A DNA stretch of 64,000 nt from NCBI GenBank assembly GCA_964491925.1, contig CAZBGZ010000001.1, forward strand, positions 701 through 64,700, read 5' to 3'. Positions within the stretch are counted from its first letter, which is position 1, and each line of letters starts with the position of its first letter. A model generated the notes under the pieces. It had not been told where the DNA came from and ran no database searches. It saw nothing but the letters and a program-made list of their open reading frames with translations. The stretch is from an uncultured Candidatus Saccharibacteria bacterium (GTDB lineage Bacteria > Patescibacteriota > Saccharimonadia > Saccharimonadales > JAGQNJ01). Below are positions 4,745-38,321 of this stretch, piece by piece. The position numbers were made by a program, and so were the translations under genes.

Positions 4745-4761
4745 GTAATATTCCTTTTTTG

Positions 4762-4796
4762 TAAAATAAAAAAACCTCCGCGCTAACGAAGGTTTT
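4762..4796 (-). terminator. Rho-independent terminator downstream of the P-loop kinase gene
   Basis: On the minus strand AACCUUCG/CGGAGGUU forms an 8-bp stem (one G.U pair) with a 6-nt loop, followed by a T-run (TTTTTATTTT). Confidence 0.55.
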
Positions 4797-4923
4797 AGTT
4801 GATTAATAATTTCTTATTTAATGGGTACTAAAAATACGCCAGCGAAAAACATGAGCATGACGGCGATGCCAACTGGTGACGTACGTTTGATTATTCGTTA
4901 ATGAGTAATTCATAACTTATATA

Positions 4924-5463: not shown

Positions 5464-5543
5464 ATCTCAATCATATCAAACAGTTAAGTAATTCGAACGA
5501 ACTAAAAAGAACATCAAAAAAGGCCATACCTGGCCTTGTTGTT

Positions 5544-5620
5544 TGGTGCACCGAGAGGGATTCGAACCCCCGACCTTCGCGTCCGAAGCGCGACGCTCTA
5601 TCCAGCTGAGCTATCGGTGC
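5544..5620 (-). tRNA. tRNA-Arg (anticodon UCG), CCA encoded
   Basis: Hand-folded cloverleaf: acceptor GCACCGA/TCGGTGC, D arm GCTC-AGCTGGATA-GAGC, anticodon arm TCGCG-CTTCGGA-CGCGA, T arm GGGGG-TTCGAAT-CCCTC, then ACCA. Confidence 0.92.
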
Positions 5621-5629
5621 GTGGACTGA

Positions 5630-6016
5630 TTATATCTTATTTTTATCGATTCTTCTGTTATGAGTCCTAATCCTATGACAATTTGAGCACACTAACTCGC
5701 ATTTTGCTATCTCTTCCTTAACTTGCCTTATACTTCCAGAATTTATCATTTTGCTAACAGTGTTTATTTTAATTCCGTTATTTTCTATGTGGTCAAAATC
5801 AGTCACATAGTATGGGTACTGAATTTTACAATCAGTACAAGCAGTTGTATTTTTCAAATCATATACCCACCGCCGTAAAACATCTCGTTTTTTATAAGCC
5901 TTATCGATGTAGTACTGTTTGTTAGCATAGTAATGACGACGTATGGCTTCACGTTGTTTTTCTTTGTCTTTCCAGGGCATATGGGGATTATAACTTATAT
6001 CCAGCTTCGAAGCCAT
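5630..6016 (-). CDS. HNH endonuclease
   Basis: DFDHIENNG ... CSNCHRIRTHNRR (HNH core flanked by Cys). Lies 10 nt from tRNA-Arg. Confidence 0.75.
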   Translation of the reverse strand: MASKLDISYNPHMPWKDKEKQREAIRRHYYANKQYYIDKAYKKRDVLRRWVYDLKNTTACTDCKIQYPYYVTDFDHIENNGIKINTVSKMINSGSIRQVKEEIAKCELVCSNCHRIRTHNRRIDKNKI

Positions 6017-6056
6017 AATCTTTATTGTTGGTGTAATGTGAGATATTTAATCGAGG

Positions 6057-6641
6057 TTAAACTTCGTTTTGCTTGTCTGTAGTTTCTTTTGGTGCTTCGA
6101 GTAGGTTTTGTGGTTTTGGCCGGCCAGCATTTTTTAGAATATCACCTAGAAGCGAATGCATTTTCTTAGCATGCTCTACACTCATGCCAACCCGCGCAAC
6201 AGAGCTAGACTGCGGATTACCTGTATTTTGCATAAAATTCATTACTACACCGTTATCGTTTGCGGATATATTTACGAGATCCGAGTATAGAATACGATTA
6301 TCGAACGGAATTATCATCAGCATTTGCTTGATCAGTTGCTCGTCAACAGACGGCGCCGCCTGGTCGTTGTTTTGCTTACTGTAACCGGCTTGCTCGAATA
6401 TTACTCTAGCTTCTTTTTCGTGGATATCTAGGTGGCTGATTAGCAGTAGCAGTATGTCTTCACTAGGTAAAACAGCACCATTTTCAATTTTGCGCAGTTG
6501 TTCGGCATCGATTTCTACGGCACCAGAAACCTCGGCGACGCTCTCGTGCACCTGTTGGCGCCATTTTTTTAGGCGCTCGCCAATGTTTTTATACGGATAT
6601 TCACCTCTTTGCATCTGTTTATATGGTAATGTCCAGGCCAC
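6057..6641 (-). CDS. XRE-type HTH protein with a DUF3467-like C-terminal domain
   Basis: N-terminal GERLKKWRQQVHESVAEVSGAVEIDAEQLRKIENG (HTH_3-like). The C-terminal NISANDNGVVMNFMQ...ARVGMSVEHAKKM resembles DUF3467. Confidence 0.5.
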   Translation of the reverse strand: MAWTLPYKQMQRGEYPYKNIGERLKKWRQQVHESVAEVSGAVEIDAEQLRKIENGAVLPSEDILLLLISHLDIHEKEARVIFEQAGYSKQNNDQAAPSVDEQLIKQMLMIIPFDNRILYSDLVNISANDNGVVMNFMQNTGNPQSSSVARVGMSVEHAKKMHSLLGDILKNAGRPKPQNLLEAPKETTDKQNEV

Positions 6642-11767: not shown

Positions 11768-13528
11768 TTAGCGTTCGTGGATTTTAAGATACCGTTCATA
11801 AGCATCGAGGCCACCGTACTCTTTGACATTTTTTACTTTACCAGCCTCAACTACATAAATTGTGTCCATAGCCGAAAGTAGCGAATGTTTGTGCGTGACC
11901 ATCAACACCGTCTTGCCTTTCATTAGTGAATTTATACCTTCAAGCACCTTGTTCTCGGATGCAGCGTCCTGTGCAGAGGTTGGCTCGTCTAGTATCAAAA
12001 TTGGCGCCCTTTTAAACATCGCCCTAGCTACCGCAATGCGCTGTTTTTGGCCACCGCTCAGAGAATCACCACTGTTGTCAACCATTGTGTCATATTTTTC
12101 AGGTAACTTGTCTATAAATTCTGACGCATTAGCAGCCGATGCGGCACCCATTACTTCAGGCAGTGGATATTGCTCATCGGGTCTGGCGAATCCAATATTT
12201 TCACCGATGGATATGGAGAATAACTTTGGCTCTTGGCTAACAATAGCAATCTGCTCTCGCAAACTCTTCAAGTTAATGGTGCTAGTATCTTTGCCGTCTA
12301 AATACACAAATCCTTTCTCTTGAATACCAAAACGTGGGACAAGGCTAACAAGCGTGCTCTTGCCTGCGCCACTAGGGCCGATGAATCCAACTTTCTCACC
12401 GGGCTTAATATCTAGATTGACTCCATCCAATACGGTCTTATCTCCGTATCTAAAAGTAACGTTCCTAAAGTTTAACTGCCCGCGTGCTTTATCTAAAACT
12501 TCTCCTGTATTCGTATTCTCGATGTCAGAATGGTCATTGATTACCTCGAAAAACTTTTTGGCGCGGGCATGGTCATCCCTGCGTTGAGCAATAGCGGATG
12601 TTAGCTGTTGCAAAGGTTCGTAAAGTTGCGTTACGTATGATATAAACACTAACAAAATACCAAAGCTCAGCTGACCATTAAACACCTTTTGACCACCAAC
12701 AATAAAAACTGTTAGTGTCGACCCGACTACAACCAGATTGCCGCTAAATCCAAAAGCGTTTGATAGTACGACTCCCTTTAGATTGAGCTTTTTCATTTGC
12801 AGCAAAAGCCGAGTGAATTTATTTAGTTGTCTTTCTTGGCTATTGAAAGATTGCACAACATCACTCTGCTCAATCGACTCTAAAGTATGGTTGTATATAG
12901 TACTATTCAATGTCTCGACGGCTTGTGACTGTGCTTCTATTCTTTTCCCAAAATAAATTATTGAAAAGTAGAGAAAAGGCACTACGACCAGACTAATCAG
13001 GGTCATCTGAACATTAACAGAAATAAGAATTATTAAAACAAAAACTATACTAACGATTGACGAGATAATTTCAACCGGGCTGCCGACTACAAGACTCCCG
13101 ATCGCGCTCCCCTGCGAGTTCAAACGATACACATAATCACTATTCTCTAACCTGGTGCTGGAACGAAGGGGCAAACTGAGCACGTGTTTCAAAAAAGTTT
13201 GTTCTACCCGTCTTTCAAAATTTTCTGCCAGTATGGTACTGAAATAGTCTGTTATAAAATTAAAAAGTGCTTCGAATAGACCAATAACTACAACAGCTGC
13301 CATCACAACAAGGAGTAGTTGAGGTTGCGTATAATTTTGAAAAAGAGCTGGTGGCGGAATCGTTCCAAAAACACTATCGGCCAAAAACTTCATCGGCCAG
13401 GGGCTGGCCAGCGTAAAACCGATAGCTATCAGCGAGAATACCAGCAGAATGACAATTGTTGGCCATGCTTTTTTGTAATGACTTCTTAGCCACCTCTTAT
13501 ACTGTAAATCATCACTATTCTTTATCAT
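11768..13528 (-). CDS. ABC exporter, fused permease + ATPase (ABCB / bacteriocin-multidrug exporter type, no peptidase domain)
   Basis: 586 aa. An N-terminal six-TM region is followed by Walker A GPSGAGKSTL, signature LSGGQKQR, and Walker B ILILDEPTSA. Confidence 0.85.
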   Translation of the reverse strand: MIKNSDDLQYKRWLRSHYKKAWPTIVILLVFSLIAIGFTLASPWPMKFLADSVFGTIPPPALFQNYTQPQLLLVVMAAVVVIGLFEALFNFITDYFSTILAENFERRVEQTFLKHVLSLPLRSSTRLENSDYVYRLNSQGSAIGSLVVGSPVEIISSIVSIVFVLIILISVNVQMTLISLVVVPFLYFSIIYFGKRIEAQSQAVETLNSTIYNHTLESIEQSDVVQSFNSQERQLNKFTRLLLQMKKLNLKGVVLSNAFGFSGNLVVVGSTLTVFIVGGQKVFNGQLSFGILLVFISYVTQLYEPLQQLTSAIAQRRDDHARAKKFFEVINDHSDIENTNTGEVLDKARGQLNFRNVTFRYGDKTVLDGVNLDIKPGEKVGFIGPSGAGKSTLVSLVPRFGIQEKGFVYLDGKDTSTINLKSLREQIAIVSQEPKLFSISIGENIGFARPDEQYPLPEVMGAASAANASEFIDKLPEKYDTMVDNSGDSLSGGQKQRIAVARAMFKRAPILILDEPTSAQDAASENKVLEGINSLMKGKTVLMVTHKHSLLSAMDTIYVVEAGKVKNVKEYGGLDAYERYLKIHER

Positions 13529-13554: not shown

Positions 13555-14166
13555 TCAACCACCGAAAAGACTTTTTTGTAATATAATCCTGCCTTTATTG
13601 AAATATTCAGTTTTAAGTGCCTTAATTAACTTTGACCTATCAACCTCGAAAAGGTCATACCCATTTTTAGCAAAGTTTTTCACCGCCGCTTTATCCGCAT
13701 AAAAATGAATAGCGACACCATTTTCCTCTAAGCTCTTGTGGCTATTTATCAGTAATCTCAGTTGGTCATCATAATCCATAAAGTTGAGCAAAATGTGTGA
13801 ATAAACAAAATCAAACTTTTTTGGAAGTTTTTTGCGACAATCAAACAATACTACTTCTTTTTGATTTTTAAGATGAGTAATATTTATGTCGTAGATAGTT
13901 ATATCTGGCTGTATTCCCGCGATACATCCGATTAGTGGATAGTACAGTGGTATATACCGTTTATCTCCTGCTCCTAAAATCGCCCATTGGTTATGGTCCA
14001 AGGTAGTCTTTATTTGATACTTTTCAAAAACCATTTGCAGCTCGTCGGTTTTATCTTCCATTTCTTTCAGGATAATTCTGTATGGATCAGAAGCCAGTCT
14101 AGCGTGATAATCAGAGTATCCTCTGTTTTTATATAGTCTATATTTGTAGTTTGTTAATAAACTCAT
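13555..14166 (-). CDS. class I SAM-methyltransferase-like protein
   Basis: 203 aa. WAILGAGDKR (motif I-like), ITIYDIN (acidic motif II), FDFVYSHILLNFM, and LEENGVAIHF. Sits between TM paralog A and the ABC exporter on the same strand. Confidence 0.45.
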   Translation of the reverse strand: MSLLTNYKYRLYKNRGYSDYHARLASDPYRIILKEMEDKTDELQMVFEKYQIKTTLDHNQWAILGAGDKRYIPLYYPLIGCIAGIQPDITIYDINITHLKNQKEVVLFDCRKKLPKKFDFVYSHILLNFMDYDDQLRLLINSHKSLEENGVAIHFYADKAAVKNFAKNGYDLFEVDRSKLIKALKTEYFNKGRIILQKSLFGG

Positions 14167-17290: not shown

Positions 17291-17623
17291 TTATGTCTCG
17301 CGAATAATAGCAACGAGCATCGGAAATGCTGTGATAACATAAAAAATAACAGATGACCAGTAGTAATTCGGTCTTACTTTTGTGATTTTCTCAATAACAT
17401 AAGGTATAAATTCTGTTTCTTTCGGAACAAATCCGAGTTTTTGCTGTAACCTAGTAATTGCACACCCCCCGAAAAGGAGTAAATGTAACTGAATTGCAAG
17501 CATAGCAATAACAACCGACTCTAAACTATAGAAAAAACCACTAACAAAATACCACGTCATCAGTCCTAAGTGAATCCAAAAAACAATGTAATTTACAATC
17601 CTGTACAAGTGTCTCTTGTTCAT
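17291..17623 (-). CDS. small multi-TM protein, paralog B (divergent member of the GC..T..QQ..G family)
   Basis: 110 aa. FGGCAITRLQQKLGFVP aligns with FKGCIFTKTQQRIGVLP (paralog A) and FEGCVFTRIQQKMGILP (paralog C). Confidence 0.55.
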   Translation of the reverse strand: MNKRHLYRIVNYIVFWIHLGLMTWYFVSGFFYSLESVVIAMLAIQLHLLLFGGCAITRLQQKLGFVPKETEFIPYVIEKITKVRPNYYWSSVIFYVITAFPMLVAIIRET

Positions 17624-18234: not shown

Positions 18235-18612
18235 TTGCCAAATGCTAGAATCAAAACAATGAGTAAAGAAAAAGAAATAATTTTCGAAAGCCCAATAAAA
18301 AGCCGGCTTCTATACGAAATTGGTTTTTGGTGGCATTTAGTAGTATGGCTGCCCGTTTATTTACTTCCGTTTATATTACCCCTGAAAACTGGGATAATCG
18401 TATTCGTGTTATATAAGATTCATGTTTTAGTGTTTGAAGGGTGTGTTTTTACTCGCATACAACAAAAGATGGGCATATTGCCATCTGGATTGGATTATTA
18501 TTCTGCTGTGTTCGCTAGAATATTTAAATACCCGTTAAGTCATAGGCAATCCTACTACATTAGCGAACTTACAGATATGTACTTTTTAACAGTTCTTATA
18601 ATCAGCAAATAA
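18235..18612 (+). CDS. small multi-TM protein, paralog C
   Basis: 125 aa from TTG, or 117 aa from the ATG at 18259. About 40% identical to paralog A. Confidence 0.6.
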   Translation: MPNARIKTMSKEKEIIFESPIKSRLLYEIGFWWHLVVWLPVYLLPFILPLKTGIIVFVLYKIHVLVFEGCVFTRIQQKMGILPSGLDYYSAVFARIFKYPLSHRQSYYISELTDMYFLTVLIISK

Positions 18613-18846: not shown

Positions 18847-18981
18847 AAATACGCTATGAACCTAAGCTGAACGTATTCAGGAATGTATGTTCTATTATAT
18901 AAGTAGCTAGTTGTTATTTGAATAACTGCCTCGGGTTGCTCTCTTGCTCGAACATTTGTAGTTTCAAATTTAAAGAAGCAA

Positions 18982-19020
18982 CTATTAAAATATCCTGATT
19001 TGTTCAGGATATTTTAATAG
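18982..19020 (-). terminator. 17-bp perfect hairpin abutting the displaced tRNA-His 3' fragment (probable original tRNA-His terminator)
   Basis: CTATTAAAATATCCTGA / TCAGGATATTTTAATAG arms with a 5-nt loop, ending exactly at the 21-nt repeat. Confidence 0.5.
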
Positions 19021-19041
19021 TGGGGTGGCTGATGGGAATTG
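19021..19041 (-). repeat. exact 21-nt duplicate of the tRNA-His 3' end (att-like direct repeat)
   Basis: TGGGGTGGCTGATGGGAATTG at 19021-19041 is identical to 19209-19229. Confidence 0.9.
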
Positions 19042-19170
19042 GTCACTTCTAGCGACCCCTAAACTTCATCTTTGAAAACAAGTTTTCAAGAGAAGATTTC
19101 CTTGCGACATGCCATTCTGGGCATGTCTCACCCACGACCAGGCCGTGTGTTTATATTCCTATCACTATCT
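19042..19170. repeat. conserved non-coding element, copy C1 (most divergent)
   Basis: Shares with C2 and C3, in the same order: CATCT, the GAAAA-CAAG-TTTTC hairpin (19074-19087), and CACCCACGACC. Confidence 0.5.
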
Positions 19171-19208
19171 ATATTTATAAACCCTGAACAAGACAGGGTT
19201 TATAAATA
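19171..19208 (-). terminator. 15-16 bp perfect hairpin immediately 3' of tRNA-His
   Basis: ATATTTATAAACCCTG / CAGGGTTTATAAATAT arms with a 7-nt loop. Confidence 0.5.
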
Positions 19209-19286
19209 TGGGGTGGCTGATGGGAATTGAACCCACGACCTTCGGTACCACAAACCGACGCTCTAACCAACTGAGCTACAGCCACC
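19209..19286 (-). tRNA. tRNA-His (anticodon GUG) with encoded G-1 and CCA
   Basis: Hand-folded: G-1 plus acceptor GTGGCTG/CAGCCAC, discriminator C, anticodon arm TCGGT-TTGTGGT-ACCGA, T arm GTGGG-TTCAATT-CCCAT. Confidence 0.92.
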
Positions 19287-19348
19287 ATGAACAGAGGTGA
19301 TTATAACTCAGATTAACCTCTGTTACAACTTAAATAATGACTTACTGA

Positions 19349-19475
19349 TTCGGGCAGGGTAATCGCACGACTGCATCTGTGCTCGAAACAAGTTTCTGCG
19401 CGTAGACTGGTCGACCGTACCAGCGACTACGGTATTTTCAAAAGAAAATCCCTGTCTCAGAACCTGATGTGCCAG
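19349..19475. repeat. conserved non-coding element, copy C2
   Basis: 19382-19427 matches 29481-29526 at 36 of 46 positions without gaps (hand count). Hairpin GAAA-CAAG-TTTC at 19385-19396. A 3' block AGAACCTGATG is shared. Confidence 0.6.
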
Positions 19476-19479
19476 AAGA

Positions 19480-19519
19480 CCATATAAAAAACCAACATCA
19501 AAGTATGTTTTTTATATGG
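19480..19519 (-). terminator. 13-bp perfect hairpin downstream of the 83-aa gene
   Basis: CCATATAAAAAAC / GTTTTTTATATGG with a 14-nt loop. Confidence 0.5.
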
Positions 19520-19557
19520 TGCAGCGTGATTGCTGAGATCAGAACTATACTGTTAAA

Positions 19558-19809
19558 TTAATCCTCGTTTTGTAGTTTCTTCAATGAGTCTTCAATGACT
19601 CGGATATAATGTTCTGCTACATTCTTTTGGTCGCCATAGTTTATAAGTTCGGATAGCTCAAAATAGCCATAGGAATCAAAGTTCAATTCGTGCTCTAAAG
19701 CCCAGCCTATGGCCGAAACCTTCTCGAGAACGGCTTCGCTATCTTTGTTCTCGTTGTACAGATTATACAATGCTTTGAGAATAGTGTAGTGTGGATTTGT
19801 TTTACTCAT
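19558..19809 (-). CDS. hypothetical small acidic protein (83 aa)
   Basis: Track ORF with no recognisable motif. Lies between tRNA-Arg(UCU) and element C2. Confidence 0.45.
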   Translation of the reverse strand: MSKTNPHYTILKALYNLYNENKDSEAVLEKVSAIGWALEHELNFDSYGYFELSELINYGDQKNVAEHYIRVIEDSLKKLQNED

Positions 19810-19868
19810 TCTTGCATTTTATCAAACTAAAAAGCACCCACAAACAGATGCTTTAAACATAAGCGAAT

Positions 19869-20550: not shown

Positions 20551-20823
20551 CTATTCCCATTCTCCAGAAATAAGTTTTTCTTTCTTTTCTCTTGTCCAGC
20601 TTTTAAGCTGAAGCTCCCTTTTACGAGCCGTAGACTTATCAGGAAAAGATTTTGATACATAAACGAGCGTAAATTTTCCTTGGTCTTTTGCCATTTTTGA
20701 GCCTTCGCCTGAATTATGTTTTACTGTTCTTTTTTCAGGATCGGGCGAAATACCGACATAGTAATGCCCGGCGTTACTGTTGCAAATGTACACATACCAT
20801 TCTTGTGCTTTTTCGTTAATCAT
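20551..20823 (-). CDS. GIY-YIG nuclease superfamily protein (UPF0213-like)
   Basis: WYVYICNSNAGHYYVGISPDPEKRTVKHNSG ... ARKRELQLKSW. Confidence 0.75.
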   Translation of the reverse strand: MINEKAQEWYVYICNSNAGHYYVGISPDPEKRTVKHNSGEGSKMAKDQGKFTLVYVSKSFPDKSTARKRELQLKSWTREKKEKLISGEWE

Positions 20824-29390: not shown

Positions 29391-29442
29391 GGCTTTATAT
29401 TAACAAAAGACCGCCTTTCAGTTGTCTTTCATGTTTCGATTG

Positions 29443-29458
29443 TGGTTGGGGTGATAGG
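29443..29458 (-). repeat. displaced tRNA-Pro 3'-end fragment (att-like repeat marking the far edge of the island)
   Basis: TGGTTGGGGTGATAGG matches 40292-40307 (TGGTCGGGGTGATAGG) at 15 of 16 positions. It is followed on the minus strand by an AAGAC/GTCTT + T-run terminator at about 29405-29430. Confidence 0.7.
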
Positions 29459-29585
29459 GCAATGCACATCTGCGTCCATGCTCGAAGCAAGCTTCTGCGA
29501 GTGGTCTGGATGACCGCACCGACGACCTTCAATCTTTTTTGCAAACAAAAAATATTGGGTCGTAGAACCCGGTGCAATGACTCCA
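29459..29585. repeat. conserved non-coding element, copy C3
   Basis: Homologous to C2 (see 19349..19475). Hairpin GAAG-CAAG-CTTC at 29484-29495. Internal stems GCACCG/CGGTGC and ACGACC/GGTCGT flank a TTTTTTG-CAAA-CAAAAAA hairpin. Confidence 0.6.
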
Positions 29586-29592
29586 AAGAATT

Positions 29593-29622
29593 AAAAAAGA
29601 CTACCTGATGGTAGTCATTTTT
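29593..29622. terminator. bidirectional Rho-independent terminator
   Basis: AAAAAA-GACTACC-TGAT-GGTAGTC-ATTTTT. Confidence 0.6.
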
Positions 29623-29767
29623 AATTGGTCGGGAGTAGCAGATTTTACTCAAACCTTAAATATGATAATCCGCCAACGCCATAACCTCAGTATTATGGTA
29701 GAACGTCTGTCTGCTGTTAGCAAATATGACGACAAGAAATTATCGCTAGTCAGTCTATAATGTTAGT

Positions 29768-29974
29768 ATGGGTAACCTGTACGAATATACTGAGACAATG
29801 AAGTACGTCAGAGATATGGTTTTTCTGGAAGTTTTAGATGATACTGAGAAATCAAAGACCTGGGTTAAGGGACTAGACAAGTTCCCAAAAAATAAAAGTT
29901 TCATAGACGATAAGGCGTGGGGCGATTTTGGCGACGATAAGCCCTTGCTAAAGAAGAAAAGTACGAAGAAATAA
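29768..29974 (+). CDS. hypothetical protein (68 aa)
   Basis: Track ORF with a Lys-rich C-terminus. Confidence 0.35.
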   Translation: MGNLYEYTETMKYVRDMVFLEVLDDTEKSKTWVKGLDKFPKNKSFIDDKAWGDFGDDKPLLKKKSTKK

Positions 29975-30093
29975 CATAGCGTGTGTTAGCTCAAACCTGG
30001 TACTTGTAATAATACTTATGGTTAGTGCTTATGTTTGGTGCTAATATGTAGTGTGTGTTGGTAATTCAAGCTCCGCTTTGAATTACGCTATTT

Positions 30094-30131
30094 GCCCGTT
30101 ACTGACTTGCGTCAGTGCGGGCTATTTCTTT
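30094..30131 (+). terminator. hairpin terminator (GCCCG-ACTGAC / GTCAGT-CGGGC) followed by a T-rich tract
   Basis: Seen at 30094-30122, followed by TATTTCTTTG. Preceded by a second 9-bp hairpin at 30061-30086. Confidence 0.5.
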
Positions 30132-30361
30132 GTACGGTTGTAAGGCGACTGGTTGGTCGGCTTCAGGCTGATACCTAGCTCAGATGCTTTACTTTGCACA
30201 GCACCAGGTGAACGACCCAGCTTTAAGCCAGCGACACGTGTTGGCGTATTGCCTCGTGCCAGTTGGCGAAGTTGAGCTTCTTGCCCTGAAGTCCAGGCTT
30301 TGCCAGAATTGGCTGGTTTTCCCATTGGAACTCCGTAACTTGAGCCTCTGTATGTCGGCAC
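30122..30361 (-). CDS. hypothetical small protein with a possible Myb/SANT-like HTH (79 aa)
   Basis: WTSGQEAQLRQLARGNTPTRVAGLKLGRSPGAVQSKASELGISL. Confidence 0.35.
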   Translation of the reverse strand: MPTYRGSSYGVPMGKPANSGKAWTSGQEAQLRQLARGNTPTRVAGLKLGRSPGAVQSKASELGISLKPTNQSPYNRTKK

Positions 30362-30625
30362 GGTGGCTCATTGTTCCCACCACCTTCTTATGCGGAGCAA
30401 TAAAAAAGCAGCAGTACGTTTATCCCGTACCCTGCTCATTGGAAATTGTTGCTGTTCTAATGAAAAGGGTGCAGGCTAAGTGTCGCTTGTTTGCAATCCA
30501 CCCCCTTGCACCTCTGTTGTCTCTCTGAGACACCTCTATATTAGCACAAGCTCGTTATCTTATATGTAGTAGTTTTTACTCCGAATTGTACGCTAGATGT
30601 AGCGTTATGCTTATGCTTAACACCT

Positions 30626-31189
30626 TTAAGTGTAAAACTTGTTGTGAAAATCAAAAAACAGTGCAGCGATTAGCACTATGTAAGTGAAAAAACATAGGGC
30701 AATACAGGCAACTTGCACTTTTATTGCAGGTCGTGGGGGGTGTATGTCTAAATTGCTCTGTGCCACATCAATCTTCTTGATTAGCTCGTCCTCGGTTTTG
30801 TAATCTCTATTGTCTATGACTAATGTTACATCGTGATATGCATCAGCCCACTTTTTATATGAGCTTTCCATTTTAAAATAGTGAACAATCCCCGCAAAGA
30901 CAGCAATTACTTCAAGAATAAACGCAAAAAGGATAAGAAACTTTTGCCCCGAAGTAAGAGAATTAAGCAATCCTCCGCTACCAAGAGCGATAACATTCAC
31001 AGAAATTAGCACTGTAGTCAGGAGTATTAACTGACCAGAAAGTGAACGCTCTGTGGTGTTAGCTTCGCTAGCCGATTTGTCTCGTTGGATTTCAAACTTG
31101 TGTTTTTGTGCAGTGAGAAACTCTACAGTGGTTGGGTCGTTGAAATCGTATTTAACGGTGTTTTGGGTTTTTATTTTTTTAGCCGCCAT
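30626..31189 (-). CDS. hypothetical membrane protein (187 aa, ~3 TM)
   Basis: Soluble N-terminus, two central TM helices, and one C-terminal TM helix. No family recognised. Confidence 0.45.
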   Translation of the reverse strand: MAAKKIKTQNTVKYDFNDPTTVEFLTAQKHKFEIQRDKSASEANTTERSLSGQLILLTTVLISVNVIALGSGGLLNSLTSGQKFLILFAFILEVIAVFAGIVHYFKMESSYKKWADAYHDVTLVIDNRDYKTEDELIKKIDVAQSNLDIHPPRPAIKVQVACIALCFFTYIVLIAALFFDFHNKFYT

Positions 31190-31192
31190 AGT

Positions 31193-31399
31193 CTATTTGG
31201 TAGATTTTGGGGTAGATTTTGGAGGGTTTGAGGTTGGCTTGATACTGGAAACAGGGGGTTTGCCGTCAATACTAACTGGATAGCCTAAAGCTCTACCTTT
31301 AACTGGTCCACTTGTAGGCGGCTTTCGGTCTAGGCTCACAGGATAACCAGTGCCTTTTCTGATAGGCTGTGGTCTGTTGCTATTCGCACGCTCACTCAT
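31193..31399 (-). CDS. hypothetical Pro-rich protein with an internal repeat (68 aa)
   Basis: GYPVSLDRKPPTS and GYPVSIDGKPPVS are tandem-like repeats. There is a 3-nt gap to the downstream membrane protein gene. Confidence 0.35.
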   Translation of the reverse strand: MSERANSNRPQPIRKGTGYPVSLDRKPPTSGPVKGRALGYPVSIDGKPPVSSIKPTSNPPKSTPKSTK

Positions 31400-31419
31400 A
31401 TTATGATTTTATCACGAAA

Positions 31420-31611
31420 CTATAGGTCTTTTTTGTCTACGGCGTTCCCTGAGTTCCTTTTTTTGAACTCGCTTATAGCCATACCTGCCATAAAATCAAG
31501 GTCTGTGATAATTTTTATGACCTGTTCATCAGTGTACTTTTCAGCTTCCTTACCCATAAGCTTACGAGCCTCTTTGACGGATATAATCAGACCTTCGTCT
31601 TTATAAGTCAT
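31420..31611 (-). CDS. hypothetical protein (63 aa)
   Basis: Track ORF. First gene of the minus-strand cargo cassette. Confidence 0.35.
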   Translation of the reverse strand: MTYKDEGLIISVKEARKLMGKEAEKYTDEQVIKIITDLDFMAGMAISEFKKRNSGNAVDKKDL

Positions 31612-31669
31612 TTCTGTTCTCCTTCTCTTAATTGTTACACTATTATAGCTTTCTACCCCTGTTAATACG

Positions 31670-31678
31670 TGCTACAAT
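31670..31678 (+). promoter_or_regulatory. extended -10 promoter (TGcTACAAT)
   Basis: 31670-31678. The predicted start site falls at the foot of the 13-bp stem that begins at 31685. Confidence 0.45.
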
Positions 31679-31684
31679 ATAAGG

Positions 31685-31786
31685 GTCTAAACTCACATCA
31701 GAGAAACGCCTTTTCGGCGTAGTTGAACCATACAATGGGCAGCTACGTAAAAAAGCAATAGGTTCAACCCTGTTGTGAGTTTAGAC
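31685..31786 (+). promoter_or_regulatory. 102-nt structured leader / nested inverted-repeat element upstream of the glycine-zipper gene
   Basis: Perfect 13-bp stem GTCTAAACTCACA (31685-97) / TGTGAGTTTAGAC (31774-86). It encloses the hairpin ACGCC-TTTTC-GGCGT (31706-20) and the 8-bp stem GTTGAACC (31722-29) / GGTTCAAC (31761-68). Confidence 0.5.
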
Positions 31787-31842
31787 ACTAGCGTGGCTGT
31801 CCTTTTTATTTGGGAACGCCACAAATAAACAAGGAGGTTACT

Positions 31843-32247
31843 ATGCTAATTGGAGGTACGTTCTACGTTTTCTACAGTGGTGGACTAGATTTAATGCCAA
31901 GACCTGGCAAATACCAATTACGATTATCTAAAAGGCATATCAGTGTTGTACCTACATTCAGAGCACCTGATGCAAAGAAGTTTGAAATACCTGTGTCAAA
32001 TCTAAAAGGCGTTTCGCTTGATTATGAAATTACGGACAGACAATTATCTGCTGGAAAAGCTATTGTCGGTGGTGTTATCGCTGGTGGCGTTGGTGCAATA
32101 GCAGGTGCTTCTATGGGTGGCAAGAAAGCAACGCCATCTTTGGTTATTAGCTTTATTGACGAAACAGGTAGCGAAAAACTGTTGCCTTTGGAGGGAAATA
32201 AGTTAGATTCTGCTCATAATATGATGGTCAAGAAGTACGGGCTATAG
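31843..32247 (+). CDS. hypothetical protein with a PH/GRAM-like N-terminus and a glycine-zipper segment (134 aa)
   Basis: ATG at 31843 with AAGGAGG 5 nt upstream (the track starts at TTG 31810). Glycine-zipper segment: GKAIVGGVIAGGVGAIAGASMGG. Confidence 0.5.
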   Translation: MLIGGTFYVFYSGGLDLMPRPGKYQLRLSKRHISVVPTFRAPDAKKFEIPVSNLKGVSLDYEITDRQLSAGKAIVGGVIAGGVGAIAGASMGGKKATPSLVISFIDETGSEKLLPLEGNKLDSAHNMMVKKYGL

Positions 32248-32493
32248 TTCCTTCTGCTTCTTGTCTTTGTATATATCGTATATAAGATTAGCCAGTGCCT
32301 CGGCGTCCTCTTTCATAGCATCACGTCTTGCCAGTTCCTCTACTTGTTCCTTAGTTATCGGCTGATATACGGTTTTCATCTGCAACACCAGCATAGTGAG
32401 TTTGTGCCGAGCTGTCTGACTATCCAGCTCTTTGCCAAACTTTGACTTATAAAGTTTTTGGAAGTCTTTTACATCTTCGTCGGTAATGTCCAC
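32242..32493 (-). CDS. hypothetical helical protein (83 aa) immediately downstream of res
   Basis: Starts 1 nt after the res stop. No motif recognised. Confidence 0.4.
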   Translation of the reverse strand: MDITDEDVKDFQKLYKSKFGKELDSQTARHKLTMLVLQMKTVYQPITKEQVEELARRDAMKEDAEALANLIYDIYKDKKQKEL

Positions 32494-32494
32494 G

Positions 32495-34993
32495 CTATTT
32501 CGCCATTAGGTTGTTTAGTTGGTCTTTCCAGCTTTTTTGGTTAAGCATTTCAAAGTGGAAGTCCATATCAGCACTACCTAGGTCAAGTTCTTGCCAGCTT
32601 TTTTCTATTGCCTGCTCGTTACAAAGGTCAAAAACGCTTTTCTTGTATTCCGAGTCCTCGTTGCCAACTAATTGGTCGCCTTTAGACTCCAGTACATATA
32701 CTTTGTCGTAATCATCTCCCGACTTGTGGCTAGCTAAAAAGTCAGGGTATATTCTGCCTGGCTTCCAGCCCTGTATACGATAATCCTTTTTAGCTTCGTT
32801 TCTGTACCACCATAGGAGCTGGCTCTGGTCGTCCAAATACAAAGCGACAGCCTCCTCAAGCTCGTTTATGTCCTCGCTTGGCACGTAATTGAACAGACTT
32901 CGCTCCAGGTCGTCATCGTGATAGTTTCGTAATCTCTGCCTGCTCCTGACGGTTGCTTTGCTTCTAAGTGGCTTGTCGCTGAGTAGGTAAAACTTCATCT
33001 CGCCACTTTTTAGCATTTTCTTGAATACTGCCTCCGCCAATCTGTCCCGTTCGGCGAACAGAGTCTTTCTGAGGCTCTCTATGACAAATACGAGGTTACT
33101 CGCAACTACTTCTATACCATTAGCCTTAATAAGCGAGGTTATAGCCGCATTTGCAGTCTCGTAAGCAATCCAGGGGTTTGGCACGATGTCTACTATTTGT
33201 CTGGCTACATATTCGGTATCAACTTCCGATTCGTAGCTGAGTTCTTTTTCTTTTCTGGACAGTGGTTTGCCGTCTGCATCAAGCCCTACAGCTATCGTAA
33301 TATCATCTACGGTTCGGTTTTCCAGACTTAATTCGGATATAGCTGAGAGGTCGGCTTTGTCCCAGTCTATCTGGCTCAATATATCGGTACTGTAGCGTAC
33401 TTCTCGCCAATCCCGCCCGTCATTTACGGCAAAGAAGGGTAGGTACACTTTGCCTGCAAACTTTTTGAACTTGTCTTGGTACTCTATCGGCTTTTCGTCC
33501 AGGTAATCAGGGTTGGTTTCCTCGTTTGTATCTACGGCTATACGTCCTGCCAAGTCGCCAAGCCCCTCGCCCTCAAGGTTTTGTTTAATGCCTTTAACCA
33601 GTTTGGTCGTATCGTGCTGGAAACTGTACACGTAGCACTCGTCCAGCTCAGTTACACCTGTCTTTTTGGCGTATGGCTGCCTAAGTACACGTCCGATAAG
33701 CTGTGTCATTGCCGTTTCGGATTGTGATTTGGTCAAACTACATAGCACATAGGCGAATGGGCAGTCCCAACCTTCCTGTAACGCCTGTTTGGTTATGATA
33801 AACCGTATCGGACAACCTTGCTCAAGCAAGTCTATACCCTCAATGTCGTCTTTCTCGGTAGATTTTATGGCGATTTGTTCCTCTGGTACGCCCGCCTGTT
33901 TCATCAGGTATTCTTTAACGTCCTCTGCGTGGATATACACTCCGTCCCGTTGGTCTTTGCCTGTACGTTCCACCTGCACGAGCATTATCGGGCGTATGTA
34001 ATTATTGGTGTTCTGTTCGTATTCTTTGGCGATTTCCTGCAATTTGCCTAAATAGTTAGTAGCGTCGGCGACGGTTTCTTTCCAGCCTACGGTCGTTTTG
34101 TTGACCAGGTGCAGGTCTAGTTTAATCATCTGTTCGTCGTTCAGCTCTTTGCCTGTTATCTCTACCAGTTTATTGGCTGATTCTGGGGGAGTTGCGGACA
34201 GCTCCAGCAAGAATGACGGGTTAAAGCCTGCGATAGTGTCTCTTGCAGTTGGGCTGTACGCCTTATGACCTTCGTCAATGATGGTTATTGGTTTGAGTAA
34301 CCGAAGTACGTTACCAAGTGAAGTTTTAGGTAAGTTGCCCCACATATAGCCCTCCGCTCCAAAGGTATCAAGATTCGGTACTTGCTCCAGCAGGCGGGTT
34401 TGGAGCTTATAGGCGTCCTCGGCTGGGAAAAACTCGGTATAACCAGTGTTGTCTTTGAATACTTTTAGTGTTTCCTTGCTTTGTCTGGAAGCAGAAGGGA
34501 GCATCAGAAGCATCACGCATAGATTTTCGGCTACGTCATCAGGTGTAAAGCGGTCTAGTTTTTCAAGGATTAAGGTTTTACCACCACTGCTTACGTCTAG
34601 CACTTGTCTGTAAGGGTGTTGTCGGTCTCGCAGGTTATTGAGTGTCTGACGGTATATCTGGGTGGTTGGCACAATCCAAAGCACCATACCGTTCTGCTTA
34701 TTCAGATATACCTTGTTTATTAGGTCAATGCTGTGGCAAGCAAGCAGGGTTTTACCACCGCCTGTCGGTACTTTCAGGTACATATTTGGTACAGGTTCGC
34801 CGATACCGTTAAACGTCTTTTTGTAACTGTCTAGCCCTATTTCTTTCCAGGCTTTAGCAGGAAAATGTATGTCATTAGCAAGTTCAGCGTCTGCCTCTTT
34901 GACCCGTTCGTAGCGTTCTCGTTGTTCTACCAGGGCGGTAAGATAGCCCGATAGTGCTTGAGTTACCTTTTTTTGGTATTCTCTAAGCTCCAT
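32495..34993 (-). CDS. res: Type III restriction enzyme, Res subunit (SF2 helicase + PD-(D/E)xK nuclease)
   Basis: Motif I VPTGGGKTLLA, motif II IIDEGHKAY, and a C-terminal YPDFLA...VYVLESKGD nuclease motif. There is a 2-nt gap after mod. Confidence 0.85.
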   Translation of the reverse strand: MELREYQKKVTQALSGYLTALVEQRERYERVKEADAELANDIHFPAKAWKEIGLDSYKKTFNGIGEPVPNMYLKVPTGGGKTLLACHSIDLINKVYLNKQNGMVLWIVPTTQIYRQTLNNLRDRQHPYRQVLDVSSGGKTLILEKLDRFTPDDVAENLCVMLLMLPSASRQSKETLKVFKDNTGYTEFFPAEDAYKLQTRLLEQVPNLDTFGAEGYMWGNLPKTSLGNVLRLLKPITIIDEGHKAYSPTARDTIAGFNPSFLLELSATPPESANKLVEITGKELNDEQMIKLDLHLVNKTTVGWKETVADATNYLGKLQEIAKEYEQNTNNYIRPIMLVQVERTGKDQRDGVYIHAEDVKEYLMKQAGVPEEQIAIKSTEKDDIEGIDLLEQGCPIRFIITKQALQEGWDCPFAYVLCSLTKSQSETAMTQLIGRVLRQPYAKKTGVTELDECYVYSFQHDTTKLVKGIKQNLEGEGLGDLAGRIAVDTNEETNPDYLDEKPIEYQDKFKKFAGKVYLPFFAVNDGRDWREVRYSTDILSQIDWDKADLSAISELSLENRTVDDITIAVGLDADGKPLSRKEKELSYESEVDTEYVARQIVDIVPNPWIAYETANAAITSLIKANGIEVVASNLVFVIESLRKTLFAERDRLAEAVFKKMLKSGEMKFYLLSDKPLRSKATVRSRQRLRNYHDDDLERSLFNYVPSEDINELEEAVALYLDDQSQLLWWYRNEAKKDYRIQGWKPGRIYPDFLASHKSGDDYDKVYVLESKGDQLVGNEDSEYKKSVFDLCNEQAIEKSWQELDLGSADMDFHFEMLNQKSWKDQLNNLMAK

Positions 34994-34995
34994 CG

Positions 34996-36627: not shown

Positions 36628-36734
36628 AGCACTATTTTGTCACACTTTGACAGAGTTTGTTAGGGGTAATTACATAAAATGACAGATTGGGAGCGAATGG
36701 GTATTGACTGGTAGCTAATTTTATTGCACTTTAT

Positions 36735-36763
36735 TTGATTTAACAGAGGTCATTTGCTATAAT
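36735..36763 (+). promoter_or_regulatory. strong sigma70-like promoter TTGATT-N17-TATAAT
   Basis: -35 element at 36735-40 and -10 element at 36758-63. Drives the RarA_C-like / integrase pair. Confidence 0.55.
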
Positions 36764-36800
36764 TATACATACAAACCTTAACAATTTGGGGGCAAAAATT

Positions 36801-38317: not shown

Positions 38318-38321
38318 GTAA

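What the first reader, a model, noticed from the sequence alone, without database searches (positions are those of the whole stretch)
18982..19229. 188-bp miniature insertion in tRNA-His bounded by an exact 21-nt duplication of the tRNA 3' end
TGGGGTGGCTGATGGGAATTG occurs at 19209-19229 (the 3' end of the intact tRNA-His) and again at 19021-19041. Each copy is immediately followed, in tRNA orientation, by a different long perfect hairpin (16 bp at 19171-19208, 17 bp at 18982-19020).

This looks like the footprint of site-specific integration into a tRNA 3' end. The incoming DNA supplies a replacement 3' end plus its own terminator, and the original 3' end plus terminator is displaced. Here the 'element' is only 188 bp and has no ORF. 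It consists of a hairpin plus copy C1 of a conserved non-coding element. It is either a non-autonomous miniature integrative element or the residue left after deletion of a larger island.
Basis: seen in the sequence. Interest (0 to 1): 0.55.

Follow-up and report, generated by a model that had tools for sequence, protein, structure and literature searches.

The report
Structured mini-insertion family at tRNA genes
The 188-bp piece after tRNA-His is one copy of a widespread, apparently undescribed family of tiny gene-less insertions in ultra-small (CPR) bacteria, each built around a conserved ~89-nt folded core that sits inside a partial copy of the neighbouring tRNA gene.

Summary
An exact 21-nt copy of tRNA-His C56–A76 lies 188 bp downstream of the intact gene, and each copy is followed by a perfect hairpin.

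The interior is not anonymous:
- An 89-nt three-helix core (window 19042-19130, minus strand) takes the place of T54-T55 in a partial tRNA-His copy.
- An antisense copy of the same tRNA region precedes it.

The window is a Saccharibacteria (CPR) chromosome. A covariance model then found 134 copies in 100 of those loci. Covariation is very strong, and no Rfam 15 family, phage record or plasmid record matches.

Nearly every core lies 40-100 nt from an intact tRNA gene on the same strand, in one of two mirror-image layouts. The core replaces exactly two nucleotides (G|NN|C) in 56 of 57 scorable cases.

Other features of the family:
- Units form ~180-nt tandem arrays.
- Cores nest inside one another.
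- Units flank cargo genes.
- Sister units differ between close relatives.

Best reading: a gene-less, tRNA-targeting miniature insertion element that supplies a replacement tRNA end plus a terminator. How it moves is unknown. No empty tRNA-His site was found.

The parts
19209..19285 (-). Intact tRNA-His(GTG), with G-1 and CCA encoded. It is the partner (target) gene of the unit.
   Evidence: ARAGORN. Rfam tRNA, 71.1 bits.
19171..19208 (-). Hairpin 1: 16-bp perfect stem with a 7-nt loop, directly after the CCA of the intact tRNA. It is the proximal terminator-like hairpin ('term1').
   Evidence: the repeat finder I4. The same position holds a hairpin in about 50 other class-1 units.
19141..19165 (-). 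Antisense arm GTGATAGGAATATAAACACACGGCC, a degenerate reverse-complement copy of tRNA-His positions ~45-68.
   Evidence: Local alignment gives 20/25 identity to the reverse complement of the tRNA. The MFE fold pairs it with the sense flanks on both sides of the core.
19131..19139 (-). Sense arm GGTCGTGGG, matching the tRNA-His variable region plus the 5' strand of the T stem (positions 45-53).
   Evidence: 10/10 identity to tRNA 46-55 numbering. Sequence read.
19042..19130 (-). Conserved structured core (5'-TGAG...GTGAC-3', 89 nt) that takes the place of T54-T55.
- P1: 19106-19127
- Invariant GCAAGG: 19100-19105
- P2, a long bulged hairpin with a CUUG loop: 19061-19099
- GGGGUCGC..GUGAC (P3): 19042-19059
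   Evidence: - Pattern match.
- Covariance model R1: 87.5 bits, E = 3.9e-19, and the only hit in the window.
- Covariation on 116 homologues.
- Two-nucleotide replacement rule.
19021..19041 (-). Exact 21-nt copy of tRNA-His C56-A76: the 3' part of the T loop, the 3' strand of the T stem, the 3' strand of the acceptor stem, the discriminator base and CCA.
   Evidence: The 21-nt C56-A76 flank is a hallmark of the whole family.
18981..19020 (-). Hairpin 2: 18-bp perfect stem with a 5-nt loop, followed by a T-rich tail. It is the distal terminator-like hairpin ('term2').
   Evidence: the repeat finder I3. Terminator scan hit.
19330..19480 (-). It belongs to tRNA-Arg(TCT), not tRNA-His, and ends in a decayed copy of the tRNA-Arg 3' end (CCCTGCCCG...).
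   Evidence: nhmmer/HMM hits. The L003 homologue lies directly after tRNA-Arg.
29440..29600 (-). It belongs to tRNA-Pro(TGG) and ends with CCCTATCACCCCAACCA, a copy of the tRNA-Pro 3' end.
   Evidence: The L003 homologue lies directly after tRNA-Pro and ends with CCCTATCACCCCGACCA.

Best explanation
The 188-bp interval is one complete unit of a large family of gene-less miniature insertion elements that live at the tRNA genes of CPR/Patescibacteria bacteria.

**What is shown**
- The unit has a fixed order: replacement tRNA 3' end (C56-A76), its own terminator hairpin, an antisense copy of the tRNA's 3' third, a short sense copy up to G53, an 89-nt three-helix core in place of T54-T55, then a second C56-A76 copy and a second terminator.
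- The core is conserved across more than 130 loci, with abundant compensatory base changes.
- A mirror-image version ('class 2') disrupts the tRNA from the 5' side and carries a promoter plus a new 5' part.

**What is inferred**
- The unit entered by site-specific recombination at G53|TT|C56 of tRNA-His. It kept the gene functional by supplying the missing end and a terminator, and displaced the original end.
- The antisense and sense arms fold back around the core into a hairpin. This hairpin imitates the double-stranded T-arm target, with the core sitting at the crossover dinucleotide.
- By analogy with integron attC sites and the folded attP(+) of CTX phage (both from my own knowledge), I propose that this folded single strand is the recombination site. 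A recombinase encoded elsewhere would recognise it.
- The same units act as boundaries and landing pads for small cargo cassettes.
For: **Family membership**
Only 3 hits look like chance.
- Model R1 found 134 hits in 100 loci, but only one in the window.

**Structure**
- 95.4% of cells are paired, against 74% in shuffles and about 40% when partners are slid.
- 687 cells have changes on both sides, against 169 in shuffles.
- P3 carries an invariant G·U pair, which marks the tRNA-sense strand as the one that folds.

**Link to tRNA genes**
- Almost every core is 40-100 nt from an intact same-strand tRNA, covering 16 or more isotypes.

**Layout**
- Class 1 and class 2 were read directly.
- The 3' flank is 21 nt, C56-A76, and is 21/21 identical in 27 of 52 units. 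The antisense arm covers tRNA ~43-66(-77) at 81% identity.
- The core replaces exactly 2 nt in 56 of 57 units, at G|NN|C. Sites include the T loop, D arm and anticodon loop.
- The window copy folds as predicted.

**Insertion-like behaviour**
- In the close relative L003, the native tRNA-Arg, still behind its native promoter, is interrupted at T54 by a core, a promoter and a fresh tRNA-Arg. The window has the uninterrupted gene.
- L003 also has a core upstream of tRNA-Pro that the window lacks.
- Tandem arrays have a ~180-nt period, and the outer copies are usually the more decayed.
- Cores are nested cleanly in the P3 of other cores at GGGGT^CGCG.
- Cargo genes are bracketed by units: APH plus a kinase in L087, a copper-resistance island in L125, and a cassette array in L133.
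- The distant Saccharibacterium L005 has the same layout after its tRNA-His, with decayed flanks.
Against: - No precise empty tRNA-His site was found. L003 simply has unrelated sequence for the 119 nt before its contig ends.
- No recombinase, reverse transcriptase or transposase lies inside any unit or any cargo stretch examined.
- Cores within one contig are barely more alike than cores from different contigs (median identity 0.72 against 0.66). There is therefore no sign of recent bursts of copying within a genome.
- More than half of each unit is specific to its tRNA. An element that moves between tRNAs would have to rebuild those parts each time, and no known recombinase does that.
- A core placed between the half-sites does not fit the geometry of any characterised tyrosine- or serine-recombinase att site.
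- The distal 21-mer is far better conserved (96%) than the antisense arm (81%). This could instead reflect function or gene conversion rather than recent insertion.
- The invariant columns of the core are partly fixed by the search pattern itself.
Confidence: 0.5

Rival explanations
1. RNA-level mobile element. The 89-nt core would be a small ribozyme or ribozyme-like module. The whole ~180-nt, almost fully base-paired unit would be a viroid-like or retrozyme-like RNA, copied back into DNA. The tRNA-derived sense and antisense arms would arise from tRNA-templated or snap-back synthesis.
For: - Covariation with G·U pairs on the tRNA-sense strand fits an RNA fold.
- Repeat boundaries coincide with mature tRNA ends: +1 in class 2, and the CCA end in class 1.
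- The antisense arm often starts with TGG (anti-CCA) and runs back to about position 43. This resembles a cDNA of the tRNA's 3' third.
- The sense-antisense-sense order with tight turn-rounds suggests fold-back synthesis.
- Tandem ~180-nt arrays could give multimeric transcripts.
- Clean core-in-core nesting looks intron-like.
Against: - No Rfam ribozyme or intron family matches, even at E ≤ 10.
- No reverse transcriptase was seen near any unit.
- In class 1 the core lies downstream of a terminator hairpin.
- Changes in the antisense arm that would keep wobble pairing are only mildly enriched: 58, against 32 other transitions and 66 transversions.
- At 89 nt the core is far smaller than any known self-splicing intron (my own knowledge).
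Confidence: 0.2
2. Host-serving RNA gene rather than a mobile element. Under this reading the unit encodes a tRNA-linked structured RNA, for example a decoy, an antisense regulator or a processing module for its partner tRNA. Its tRNA-like arms would stay matched to the neighbouring gene through selection or gene conversion. Presence or absence differences would reflect ordinary gain and loss.
For: - The same layout sits after tRNA-His in a distant Saccharibacterium whose ClpB is only 49% identical.
- Cores in one genome are old and divergent.
- The 21-nt sense flank is kept at 96% identity while the antisense arm drifts to 81%.
- The core is strongly constrained in structure.
Against: - Tandem arrays with decaying outer copies.
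- Nested cores.
- Insertion at several positions in tRNAs, always replacing 2 nt.
- Disruption of a native tRNA-Arg copy in L003.
- Units bracketing accessory cargo genes.
- Many decayed copies.
Confidence: 0.2
3. Scar of a larger genomic island. A normal integrase-bearing island integrated into tRNA-His and was later deleted almost completely, leaving attL and attR 188 bp apart.
For: - tRNA loci here do collect islands. An island of about 10.6 kb with a large serine recombinase sits at tRNA-Pro in this window and is missing from L003.
- Cargo-bearing versions of the units exist.
Against: - Random deletions would not give the same ~160-190-bp unit with the same internal order at about 50 independent loci and many isotypes.
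- The interior is a conserved structured module, not leftover island DNA.
Confidence: 0.05
4. Local duplication and decay. Replication slippage or template switching at the terminator hairpin would have triplicated the tRNA's 3' third (sense, antisense, sense) with no mobile element involved, and the core would be an unrelated later arrival.
For: - The order sense tRNA 3' part, hairpin, antisense arm, sense arm is what two template switches at hairpins would produce.
- In the window, hairpin 1 resembles an inverted copy of hairpin 2 (73% complementary over 37 nt, I1).
Against: - The core is always at the same dinucleotide of the distal copy.
- The layout is identical across many lineages and isotypes.
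- The two hairpins are unrelated in most other units.
- The class-2 mirror form carries a conserved promoter segment.
Confidence: 0.05

Closest known systems
tRNA-targeting integrative elements and their gene-less derivatives (genomic islands, tycheposons of Prochlorococcus, CIME-type cis-mobilisable elements)
   Same: - An intact tRNA is regenerated at one junction and a partial tRNA copy is left at the other.
- Repeated integrations at one tRNA push older copies outward and build arrays with cargo genes. The tycheposon preprint 10.1101/2020.12.28.424599 describes partial tRNAs flanking elements, about 40-nt attachment sites and successive integrations.
- Gene-less, att-flanked derivatives are known as CIMEs (my own knowledge).
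   Different: - There is no integrase in or next to the units.
- The unit is only ~180 bp and has a fixed internal order.
- An 89-nt structured core sits exactly in place of two nucleotides of the tRNA copy.
- An antisense arm is always present.
- A mirror-image class supplies a 5' part plus a promoter.
- Insertions also occur in the D arm and anticodon loop, and inside other cores.
Folded single-stranded recombination sites: integron attC and the CTX-phage attP(+) hairpin
   Same: - The structure is conserved rather than the sequence.
- One specific strand folds.
- Inverted target-like segments pair to imitate a double-stranded site.
- Cassette arrays of promoter-less accessory genes are separated by such sites.

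This is an analogy from my own knowledge. Cassette-like arrays were seen in L133 and L087.
   Different: - The fold is a three-helix junction inserted in a target-mimic helix, not a single bulged hairpin.
- No GTTRRRY-type boxes were recognised.
- No IntI or Xer gene was linked to the units.
- The target is a tRNA gene.
Introns in tRNA genes (bacterial group I introns in anticodon loops; archaeal introns at non-canonical positions, including D and T arms)
   Same: - A structured insert interrupts the tRNA sequence at the T loop, D arm or anticodon loop.
- Nesting occurs, as in twintrons.
[quoted passage not shown]
   Different: - The interrupted copy is not a complete tRNA, and an intact copy always sits beside it.
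- Removing the core leaves the sequence two nucleotides short.
- At 89 nt the core is far below group I size, and no Rfam intron hit was obtained.
Small ribozymes placed next to tRNAs (HDV-like 'theta' ribozymes of gut phages, PMC10879173)
   Same: A small structured RNA module tightly linked to tRNA genes (title and abstract seen).
   Different: - There is no match to the HDV-like or any other ribozyme model in Rfam.
- The fold is three consecutive hairpins rather than a nested double pseudoknot.
- The core is embedded in a partial tRNA copy behind a terminator, not directly after the tRNA.
IS110-family bridge-RNA / seekRNA recombination
   Same: A structured RNA module is flanked by segments that match the target on both sides while skipping a central dinucleotide. 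Both sense and antisense target-derived segments are present. This is an analogy from my own knowledge.
   Different: - No DEDD transposase gene accompanies the units.
- The arms are 10-34 nt, much longer than bridge-RNA guides.
- The units sit at their own target as partial gene copies.

Membership tests
tRNA-integrating element / att-flanked miniature derivative (CIME-like) | Direct repeat of a tRNA segment bounding the insert, with an intact tRNA at one junction | tested here: met
   Exact 21-nt C56-A76 repeat. Intact tRNA-His.
tRNA-integrating element / att-flanked miniature derivative (CIME-like) | A cognate integrase, either inside the element or identifiable elsewhere | tested here: not met
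   - The unit contains no ORF.
- Cargo stretches in L087, L125 and L106 encode no recombinase.
- A large serine recombinase exists at tRNA-Pro in the window, but no link to the unit was shown.
tRNA-integrating element / att-flanked miniature derivative (CIME-like) | Empty and occupied sites among relatives | tested here: inconclusive
   - tRNA-His: L003 has unrelated sequence downstream and its contig ends after 119 nt. L005 has an occupied, decayed site. L163 is the same strain, also occupied.
- Sister units at tRNA-Arg and tRNA-Pro do differ between L003 and the window.
tRNA-integrating element / att-flanked miniature derivative (CIME-like) | Excised circular form, or a demonstrated integration reaction | not testable with these tools
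   This needs reads, PCR or biochemistry.
Any curated RNA family of Rfam 15 (including tRNA-like RNAs, tmRNA, group I/II introns, small ribozymes) | Covariance-model match to the core | tested here: not met
   - No hit on the core at E ≤ 10 in the window.
- No hit at E ≤ 1 on five loci with consensus-like cores.
- Gathering-threshold scans found only tRNAs in the window and no family at all in nine other core-bearing loci.
Group I intron in a tRNA gene | Removal of the insert restores a complete tRNA; catalytic core of about 200 nt or more | tested here: not met
   - The host copy lacks the 5' two-thirds of the tRNA (window copy).
- The sequence is 2 nt short after the core is removed.
- The core is 89 nt.
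Integron attC / gene cassette | A single imperfect hairpin with paired R/L boxes, next to an intI-attI platform | tested here: not met
   The consensus fold is a three-helix junction. No integron integrase was seen in the cargo or neighbouring ORFs examined. A dedicated attC model was not run.
MITE (miniature inverted-repeat transposable element) | Terminal inverted repeats at the element ends and a short fixed-length target-site duplication | tested here: not met
   The inverted repeats are internal (the antisense and sense tRNA arms), not terminal. The flanking repeat is a 21-nt, or in class 2 a 17-54-nt, stretch of tRNA whose outer boundary is the end of the mature tRNA.

The most novel reading that the evidence does not exclude
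The 89-nt core would define a previously undescribed class of nucleic-acid element. It would be either a self-acting RNA (or folded single-stranded DNA) module, or the dedicated recognition fold of an unknown recombinase. It inserts at G|NN|C sites in tRNA genes and in its own P3 helix, and it comes packaged with a fold-back imitation of its target. It also carries a ready-made promoter or terminator, so that the essential tRNA survives. Under this reading, CPR bacteria possess a new tRNA-templated way to build and shuffle small gene-cassette arrays.
Probability: 0.35. Interest if true: 0.9.

Novelty: new variant of a known kind. Interest (0 to 1): 0.78.

Why it matters
CPR/Patescibacteria make up a large share of bacterial diversity, and little is known about how their small genomes exchange genes.

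- **A strongly conserved fold with no description found.** The fold is present in well over a hundred contigs from a scan that was cut off at its limit. It is wired to essential tRNA genes and matches no Rfam 15 family. None of my seven full-text searches found a description. It is therefore either a new recombination site, a new ribozyme-like module or a new class of tRNA-linked RNA.
- **A mechanistic clue.** The two-nucleotide replacement rule and the built-in imitation of the target are testable leads to a recombination chemistry that may be programmable by sequence.
- **A practical consequence.** These units create pseudo-tRNAs, palindromes and repeats that break assemblies and confuse tRNA annotation in CPR genomes. 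Three Logan contigs of this strain end at or next to units or tRNA genes in this region, one of them inside the core's P2 hairpin.

Tried and rejected
**Leads that gave nothing**
- I first took the window for a phage genome, because of its scattered tRNAs and small ORFs. Megablast against 50,697 phage records found only a tRNA fragment. PHROG and Pfam hits, together with ClpB-based loci, showed a Saccharibacteria chromosome.
- nhmmer and blastn with the interior against the window found no second copy.
- Rfam gave no family for the core or for the type-B element, at gathering threshold or at permissive E-values.
- The core pattern had 0 hits in viral contigs. The core consensus had no match in phage or plasmid records.
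- Exact-protein look-ups for strain variants: the 83-aa and 125-aa neighbouring ORFs are not on record. The ClpB-like and 110-aa proteins returned only contigs of the same strain, which break at tRNA-Gly and in unit hairpins. No empty site was obtained.
- Seven full-text literature searches found no description of the element.

**Tests with a negative or weak result**
- Recent within-genome copying: core identity within a locus is only slightly above that between loci. A recent burst is rejected.
- RNA-type pairing constraint on the antisense arm: only weak enrichment of wobble-compatible changes.

**Ideas considered and dropped**
- tmRNA or a two-piece tmRNA: the acceptor identity is wrong and ARAGORN reports none.
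- An HDV-like or 'theta' ribozyme: the topology is wrong.
- IS200/IS605-type hairpin ends: P1 varies freely in sequence, which is unlike a protein-recognised DNA hairpin.
- A casposon or other staggered-cut target-site duplication: this cannot explain the antisense arm.

**Not done**
- I did not run protein homology, structure prediction or fold searches, because the unit encodes no protein.
Full report
**1.

The 21-mer TGGGGTGGCTGATGGGAATTG occurs exactly twice in the window, at 19021-19041 and 19209-19229. Shuffled sequence gives no matches even with three mismatches allowed. ARAGORN and Rfam place an intact tRNA-His(GTG) at 19209-19285 on the minus strand. Read in the tRNA's orientation, the repeat is CAATTCCCATCAGCCACCCCA. 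This runs from C56 of the T loop, through the 3' strand of the T stem, the 3' strand of the acceptor stem and the discriminator base, to the encoded CCA.

The two copies are 188 bp apart, and each is followed by a perfect hairpin of 16 bp or 18 bp. The distal hairpin scores as an intrinsic terminator. The interval holds no convincing ORF. An independent Logan assembly of run SRR14932609 is 100% identical to window 19090-13291, so the distal half of the arrangement is not an artefact of this assembly.

**2. Where the window comes from**

I first suspected a phage, but no phage record is similar. The proteins near the locus are a ClpB/ClpC-type ATPase, ABC transporters and a MacB/FtsX permease. 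The ClpB-like protein is 95% identical to one in an uncultured Candidatus Saccharibacteria genome (L003). It is about 49% identical to those in other Saccharimonadales and 31-38% identical to those in other Patescibacteria. The window is therefore a Saccharibacteria (CPR) chromosome. L003 is about 84% identical in DNA and largely syntenic.

**3. The interior is a partial tRNA-His copy with a structured core in its T loop**

In tRNA orientation the interior reads as follows:

| Segment | Window coordinates |
|---|---|
| Hairpin 1 | 19171-19208 |
| Antisense arm GTGATAGGAATATAAACACACGGCC, 20/25 identical to the reverse complement of tRNA-His ~45-68 | 19141-19165 |
| Sense arm GGTCGTGGG (tRNA 45-53) | 19131-19139 |
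| 89-nt core, TGAG...GTGAC | 19042-19130 |
| The 21-mer | 19021-19041 |
| Hairpin 2 | 18981-19020 |

Compared with the real gene (…GGTCGTGGG-TT-CAATTCC…), the core stands exactly where T54 and T55 should be. The minimum-free-energy fold of 19021-19170 pairs the antisense arm with the sense flanks on both sides of the core. It also gives the core three hairpins.

**4. The core is a widespread, strongly constrained fold**

The same core lies next to tRNA-Pro and tRNA-Arg in L003. It also lies after tRNA-His and tRNA-Pro in the distant Saccharibacterium L005.

From these five copies I wrote the pattern GTGA-N17-26-GCAAGG-N28-50-GGGGTYGC-N5-GTGACY. It found nothing in viral contigs. My own rough estimate of chance hits is about a dozen, and only three hits (GC-rich coding sequence) look like chance.

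An alignment of 116 distinct copies gives a three-helix consensus. The pair counts are as follows:

| Measure | Observed | Control |
|---|---|---|
| Cells forming a standard pair | 95.4% | 74% shuffled; 29-43% with partners slid |
| Cells changed on both sides | 687 | 169 shuffled |
| Pairs showing a change on both sides | 24 of 33 | – |

- P1 varies freely in sequence but keeps its pairing.
- P3 carries a G·U pair in all 116 sequences, so the strand that folds is the tRNA-sense strand.
- Caveat: the invariant GUGA, GCAAGG, GGGGUYGC and GUGAC segments were fixed by the search pattern. Their invariance is therefore not independent evidence.

A covariance model built from this alignment (R1) gave:
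- one hit in the window;
- three hits each in L003 and L005, and none in the 38 other ClpB-linked loci;
- 134 hits in 100 of the metagenome loci.

No Rfam 15 family matches the core, either in the window at E ≤ 10 or in five consensus-like loci at E ≤ 1. Phage and plasmid records contain nothing similar.

**5. The core is tied to tRNA genes in two mirror-image layouts**

Almost every core lies 40-100 nt from an intact tRNA gene on the same strand, across at least 16 isotypes.

*Class 1* (the window's type) has this order:
- intact tRNA;
- terminator hairpin;
- antisense copy of the tRNA's 3' third, which usually starts with TGG, the complement of CCA;
- short sense copy up to G53;
- core;
- C56-A76;
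- second terminator.

In 52 scored units the 3' flank is the 21-nt C56-A76 segment, at 96% mean identity and 21/21 in 27 units. The sense arm covers about positions 43-55 at 93% identity. The antisense arm covers about 43-66, and often extends to 77, at 81% identity. The window's 'exact 21-nt duplication' is thus a hallmark of the whole family.

*Class 2* has this order:
- the native promoter and the tRNA from +1 up to the insertion point;
- core;
- about 8 nt of sense tRNA;
- a short antisense piece;
- a conserved promoter-like segment (…TTCGAACC…TTTACAAT…);
- a complete tRNA.

In both classes the antisense piece can pair with the sense flanks on both sides of the core. The core therefore emerges from a helix that imitates the double-stranded target.

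**6. A precise rule for the junction**

I defined the element as TGAG…GTGAC and mapped its flanks onto the neighbouring tRNA. The element replaces exactly two nucleotides in 56 of 57 scorable units, and three in the remaining one.
- The preceding base is G.
- The following base is C in all but two of the listed cases.
- The replaced pair is T54-T55 in most units.
- The replaced pair can also be in the D stem (CG or CA), the D loop, or the anticodon loop (AG, GC or GT).
- Cores also sit inside the P3 helix of other cores at GGGGT^CGCG, with no extra flanking material (compare).

**7. Behaviour that looks like insertion**

- In L003 the native tRNA-Arg(TCT) still sits behind the same upstream sequence as in the window. 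It is interrupted after T54 by a nested double core, the promoter segment and a fresh intact tRNA-Arg. The displaced 5' copy has begun to decay. The window has the uninterrupted gene.
- L003 also has a class-2 core upstream of tRNA-Pro that the window lacks.
- Partial tRNA copies recur at a period of about 180 nt on one side of the same tRNA, for example in L106, L072, L077, L162, L140 and L117. The outer copies are usually the more decayed.
- Units bracket accessory genes:
  - an aminoglycoside-phosphotransferase-like gene (annotated by eye) plus a kinase-like gene in L087;
  - a copper-ATPase / CsoR-like / PLD-like island in L125, and a methyltransferase in L106;
  - an array of small cassettes in L133, each ending in a 9-nt remnant of the tRNA-Lys 3' end.
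- None of the cargo examined encodes a recombinase.

**8. What argues for caution**

- No empty tRNA-His site was found. L003 has unrelated sequence for the 119 nt before its contig ends. L005 is occupied but decayed. The Logan contigs are the same strain.
- Cores within one contig are only slightly more alike than cores from different contigs (median 0.72 against 0.66), so there is no recent burst of copying.
- The antisense arm shows only a mild excess of changes that would preserve wobble pairing: 58, against 32 other transitions and 66 transversions.
- More than half of each unit is specific to its tRNA. No characterised recombinase explains this.

**9. Interpretation**

*Shown:*
- the anatomy of the unit;
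- its membership of a large family;
- the conserved fold;
- the tie to tRNA genes;
- the two-nucleotide rule;
- arrays, nesting, cargo and differences between relatives.

*Further inferred, more weakly:* the fold-back plus the core is the recombination site. It would be used in single-stranded folded form by an enzyme encoded elsewhere. The analogy is with integron attC and CTX-phage attP(+), both recalled from my own knowledge.

The rivals are:
- an RNA-level mobile element (a ribozyme-like core with tRNA-templated fold-back synthesis);
- a host-serving tRNA-linked RNA kept matched to its tRNA by selection or gene conversion;
- a deleted-island scar;
- pure template-switch duplication.

The last two fit the uniform unit size and fixed order poorly.

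**10. Comparison with known systems**

The closest known kind is the tRNA-integrating element and its gene-less derivatives. The tycheposon preprint describes partial tRNAs flanking elements and successive integrations that push older elements outward. The present family differs from that kind in several ways:
- it has no integrase;
- its units are ~180 bp with a fixed internal order;
- it carries a structured core at a dinucleotide;
- it always has an antisense arm;
- it has a mirror class with its own promoter;
- its cores nest inside one another.

It fails the tests I could apply for membership of Rfam families, group I introns, integron attC sites and MITEs (see the membership table). Seven full-text searches found no description of it. 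The library is incomplete, so prior description elsewhere cannot be excluded.

**11. Verdict**

I file it as a new variant of a known kind: a tRNA-targeting insertion element. There is a substantial chance that the core and its fold-back represent a new mechanism.

Noticed in passing
window ~29636-40291: An island of about 10.6 kb lies between tRNA-Pro(TGG) (40292-40368, minus) and the type-B unit. It carries a 561-aa large serine recombinase (38618-40303, plus) whose 3' end overlaps the tRNA 3' end, together with a helicase-like protein (832 aa) and a DNA methyltransferase (543 aa). It is bounded by a short repeat of the tRNA-Pro 3' end (…CCCGACCAA) and is absent from the close relative L003.
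   Followed up: partly
The two window copies belong to tRNA-Arg(TCT) and tRNA-Pro(TGG). There is no Rfam match.
   Followed up: partly
window 19517-19868 (83-aa ORF at 19558-19809, minus): A small ORF cassette with its own hairpin sits between tRNA-Arg(TCT) and a decayed copy of the tRNA-Arg 3' end (…GCACCA at 19517-19522). L003 lacks it, and tRNA-Arg there is followed directly by the hairpin and the type-B unit. The ORF has no Pfam hit and no exact match on record.
   Followed up: partly
L003 13285-13555: The native tRNA-Arg(TCT) copy is disrupted at T54 by two nested cores (R1 hits at 13339-13409 and 13410-13502). A promoter-like segment and a second, intact tRNA-Arg follow. The displaced 5' copy has mutations in the D loop and the variable region.
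   Followed up: yes
L133 11150-12700; L087 4612-6579; L125 (oriented coordinates 2117-6421): Gene cassettes are bracketed by class-1 units. L133 has a GNAT-like ORF and a 117-aa ORF. L087 has an APH-like gene plus a kinase-like gene. L125 has a copper-ATPase, CsoR-like and PLD-like island. In L133 each cassette ends with a 9-nt remnant (GGCCCTCCA) of the tRNA-Lys 3' end. Protein names were assigned by eye and were not checked with Pfam.
   Followed up: partly
L053 (after tRNA-Leu), L036 (after tRNA-Met), L070/L095 and L073 (before tRNA-Arg / tRNA-Gly): Shorter units (about 95-135 nt between repeats) have the same tRNA, hairpin, antisense, sense and flank layout but carry other, unrelated small cores. 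This suggests a superfamily of tRNA-linked units. L036 is labelled only 'Patescibacteria group', so the layout is not confined to Saccharibacteria.
   Followed up: partly
window ~40460-40490 (minus); L003 ~13880-13930; L005 ~5740-5790 (minus): A conserved leader-like motif (…CAAACCAAG…N…CTGTTTGAA…) lies upstream of tRNA-Pro or tRNA-His in three Saccharibacteria genomes. It may be a hairpin in the tRNA leader.
   Followed up: no
window 17291-17623 (minus) and 18235-18612 (plus): Two small paralogous predicted membrane proteins share the motif F-x-GC-x-x-TR-x-QQK-x-G. Neither has a Pfam hit. They lie just beyond the distal end of the tRNA-His unit.
   Followed up: no
L163, L001, L002 (Logan contigs of SRR14932609 and SRR14932608): Independent assemblies of the same strain break inside the core's P2 palindrome (window 19090), inside the type-B unit (29517) and at tRNA-Gly (20952). 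These units and tRNA genes appear to fragment short-read assemblies.
   Followed up: partly
window 52137-58940: Proteins in this stretch hit PHROG families, including a virion structural protein (57024-58940) and families of unknown function (52137-53954). A prophage or phage-derived region may lie at the far end of the window.
   Followed up: no
window 20551-20823 (minus): A 90-aa ORF between tRNA-Arg and tRNA-Gly looks by eye like a small GIY-YIG-type nuclease (…YYVGIS…). It was not checked against any library.
   Followed up: no
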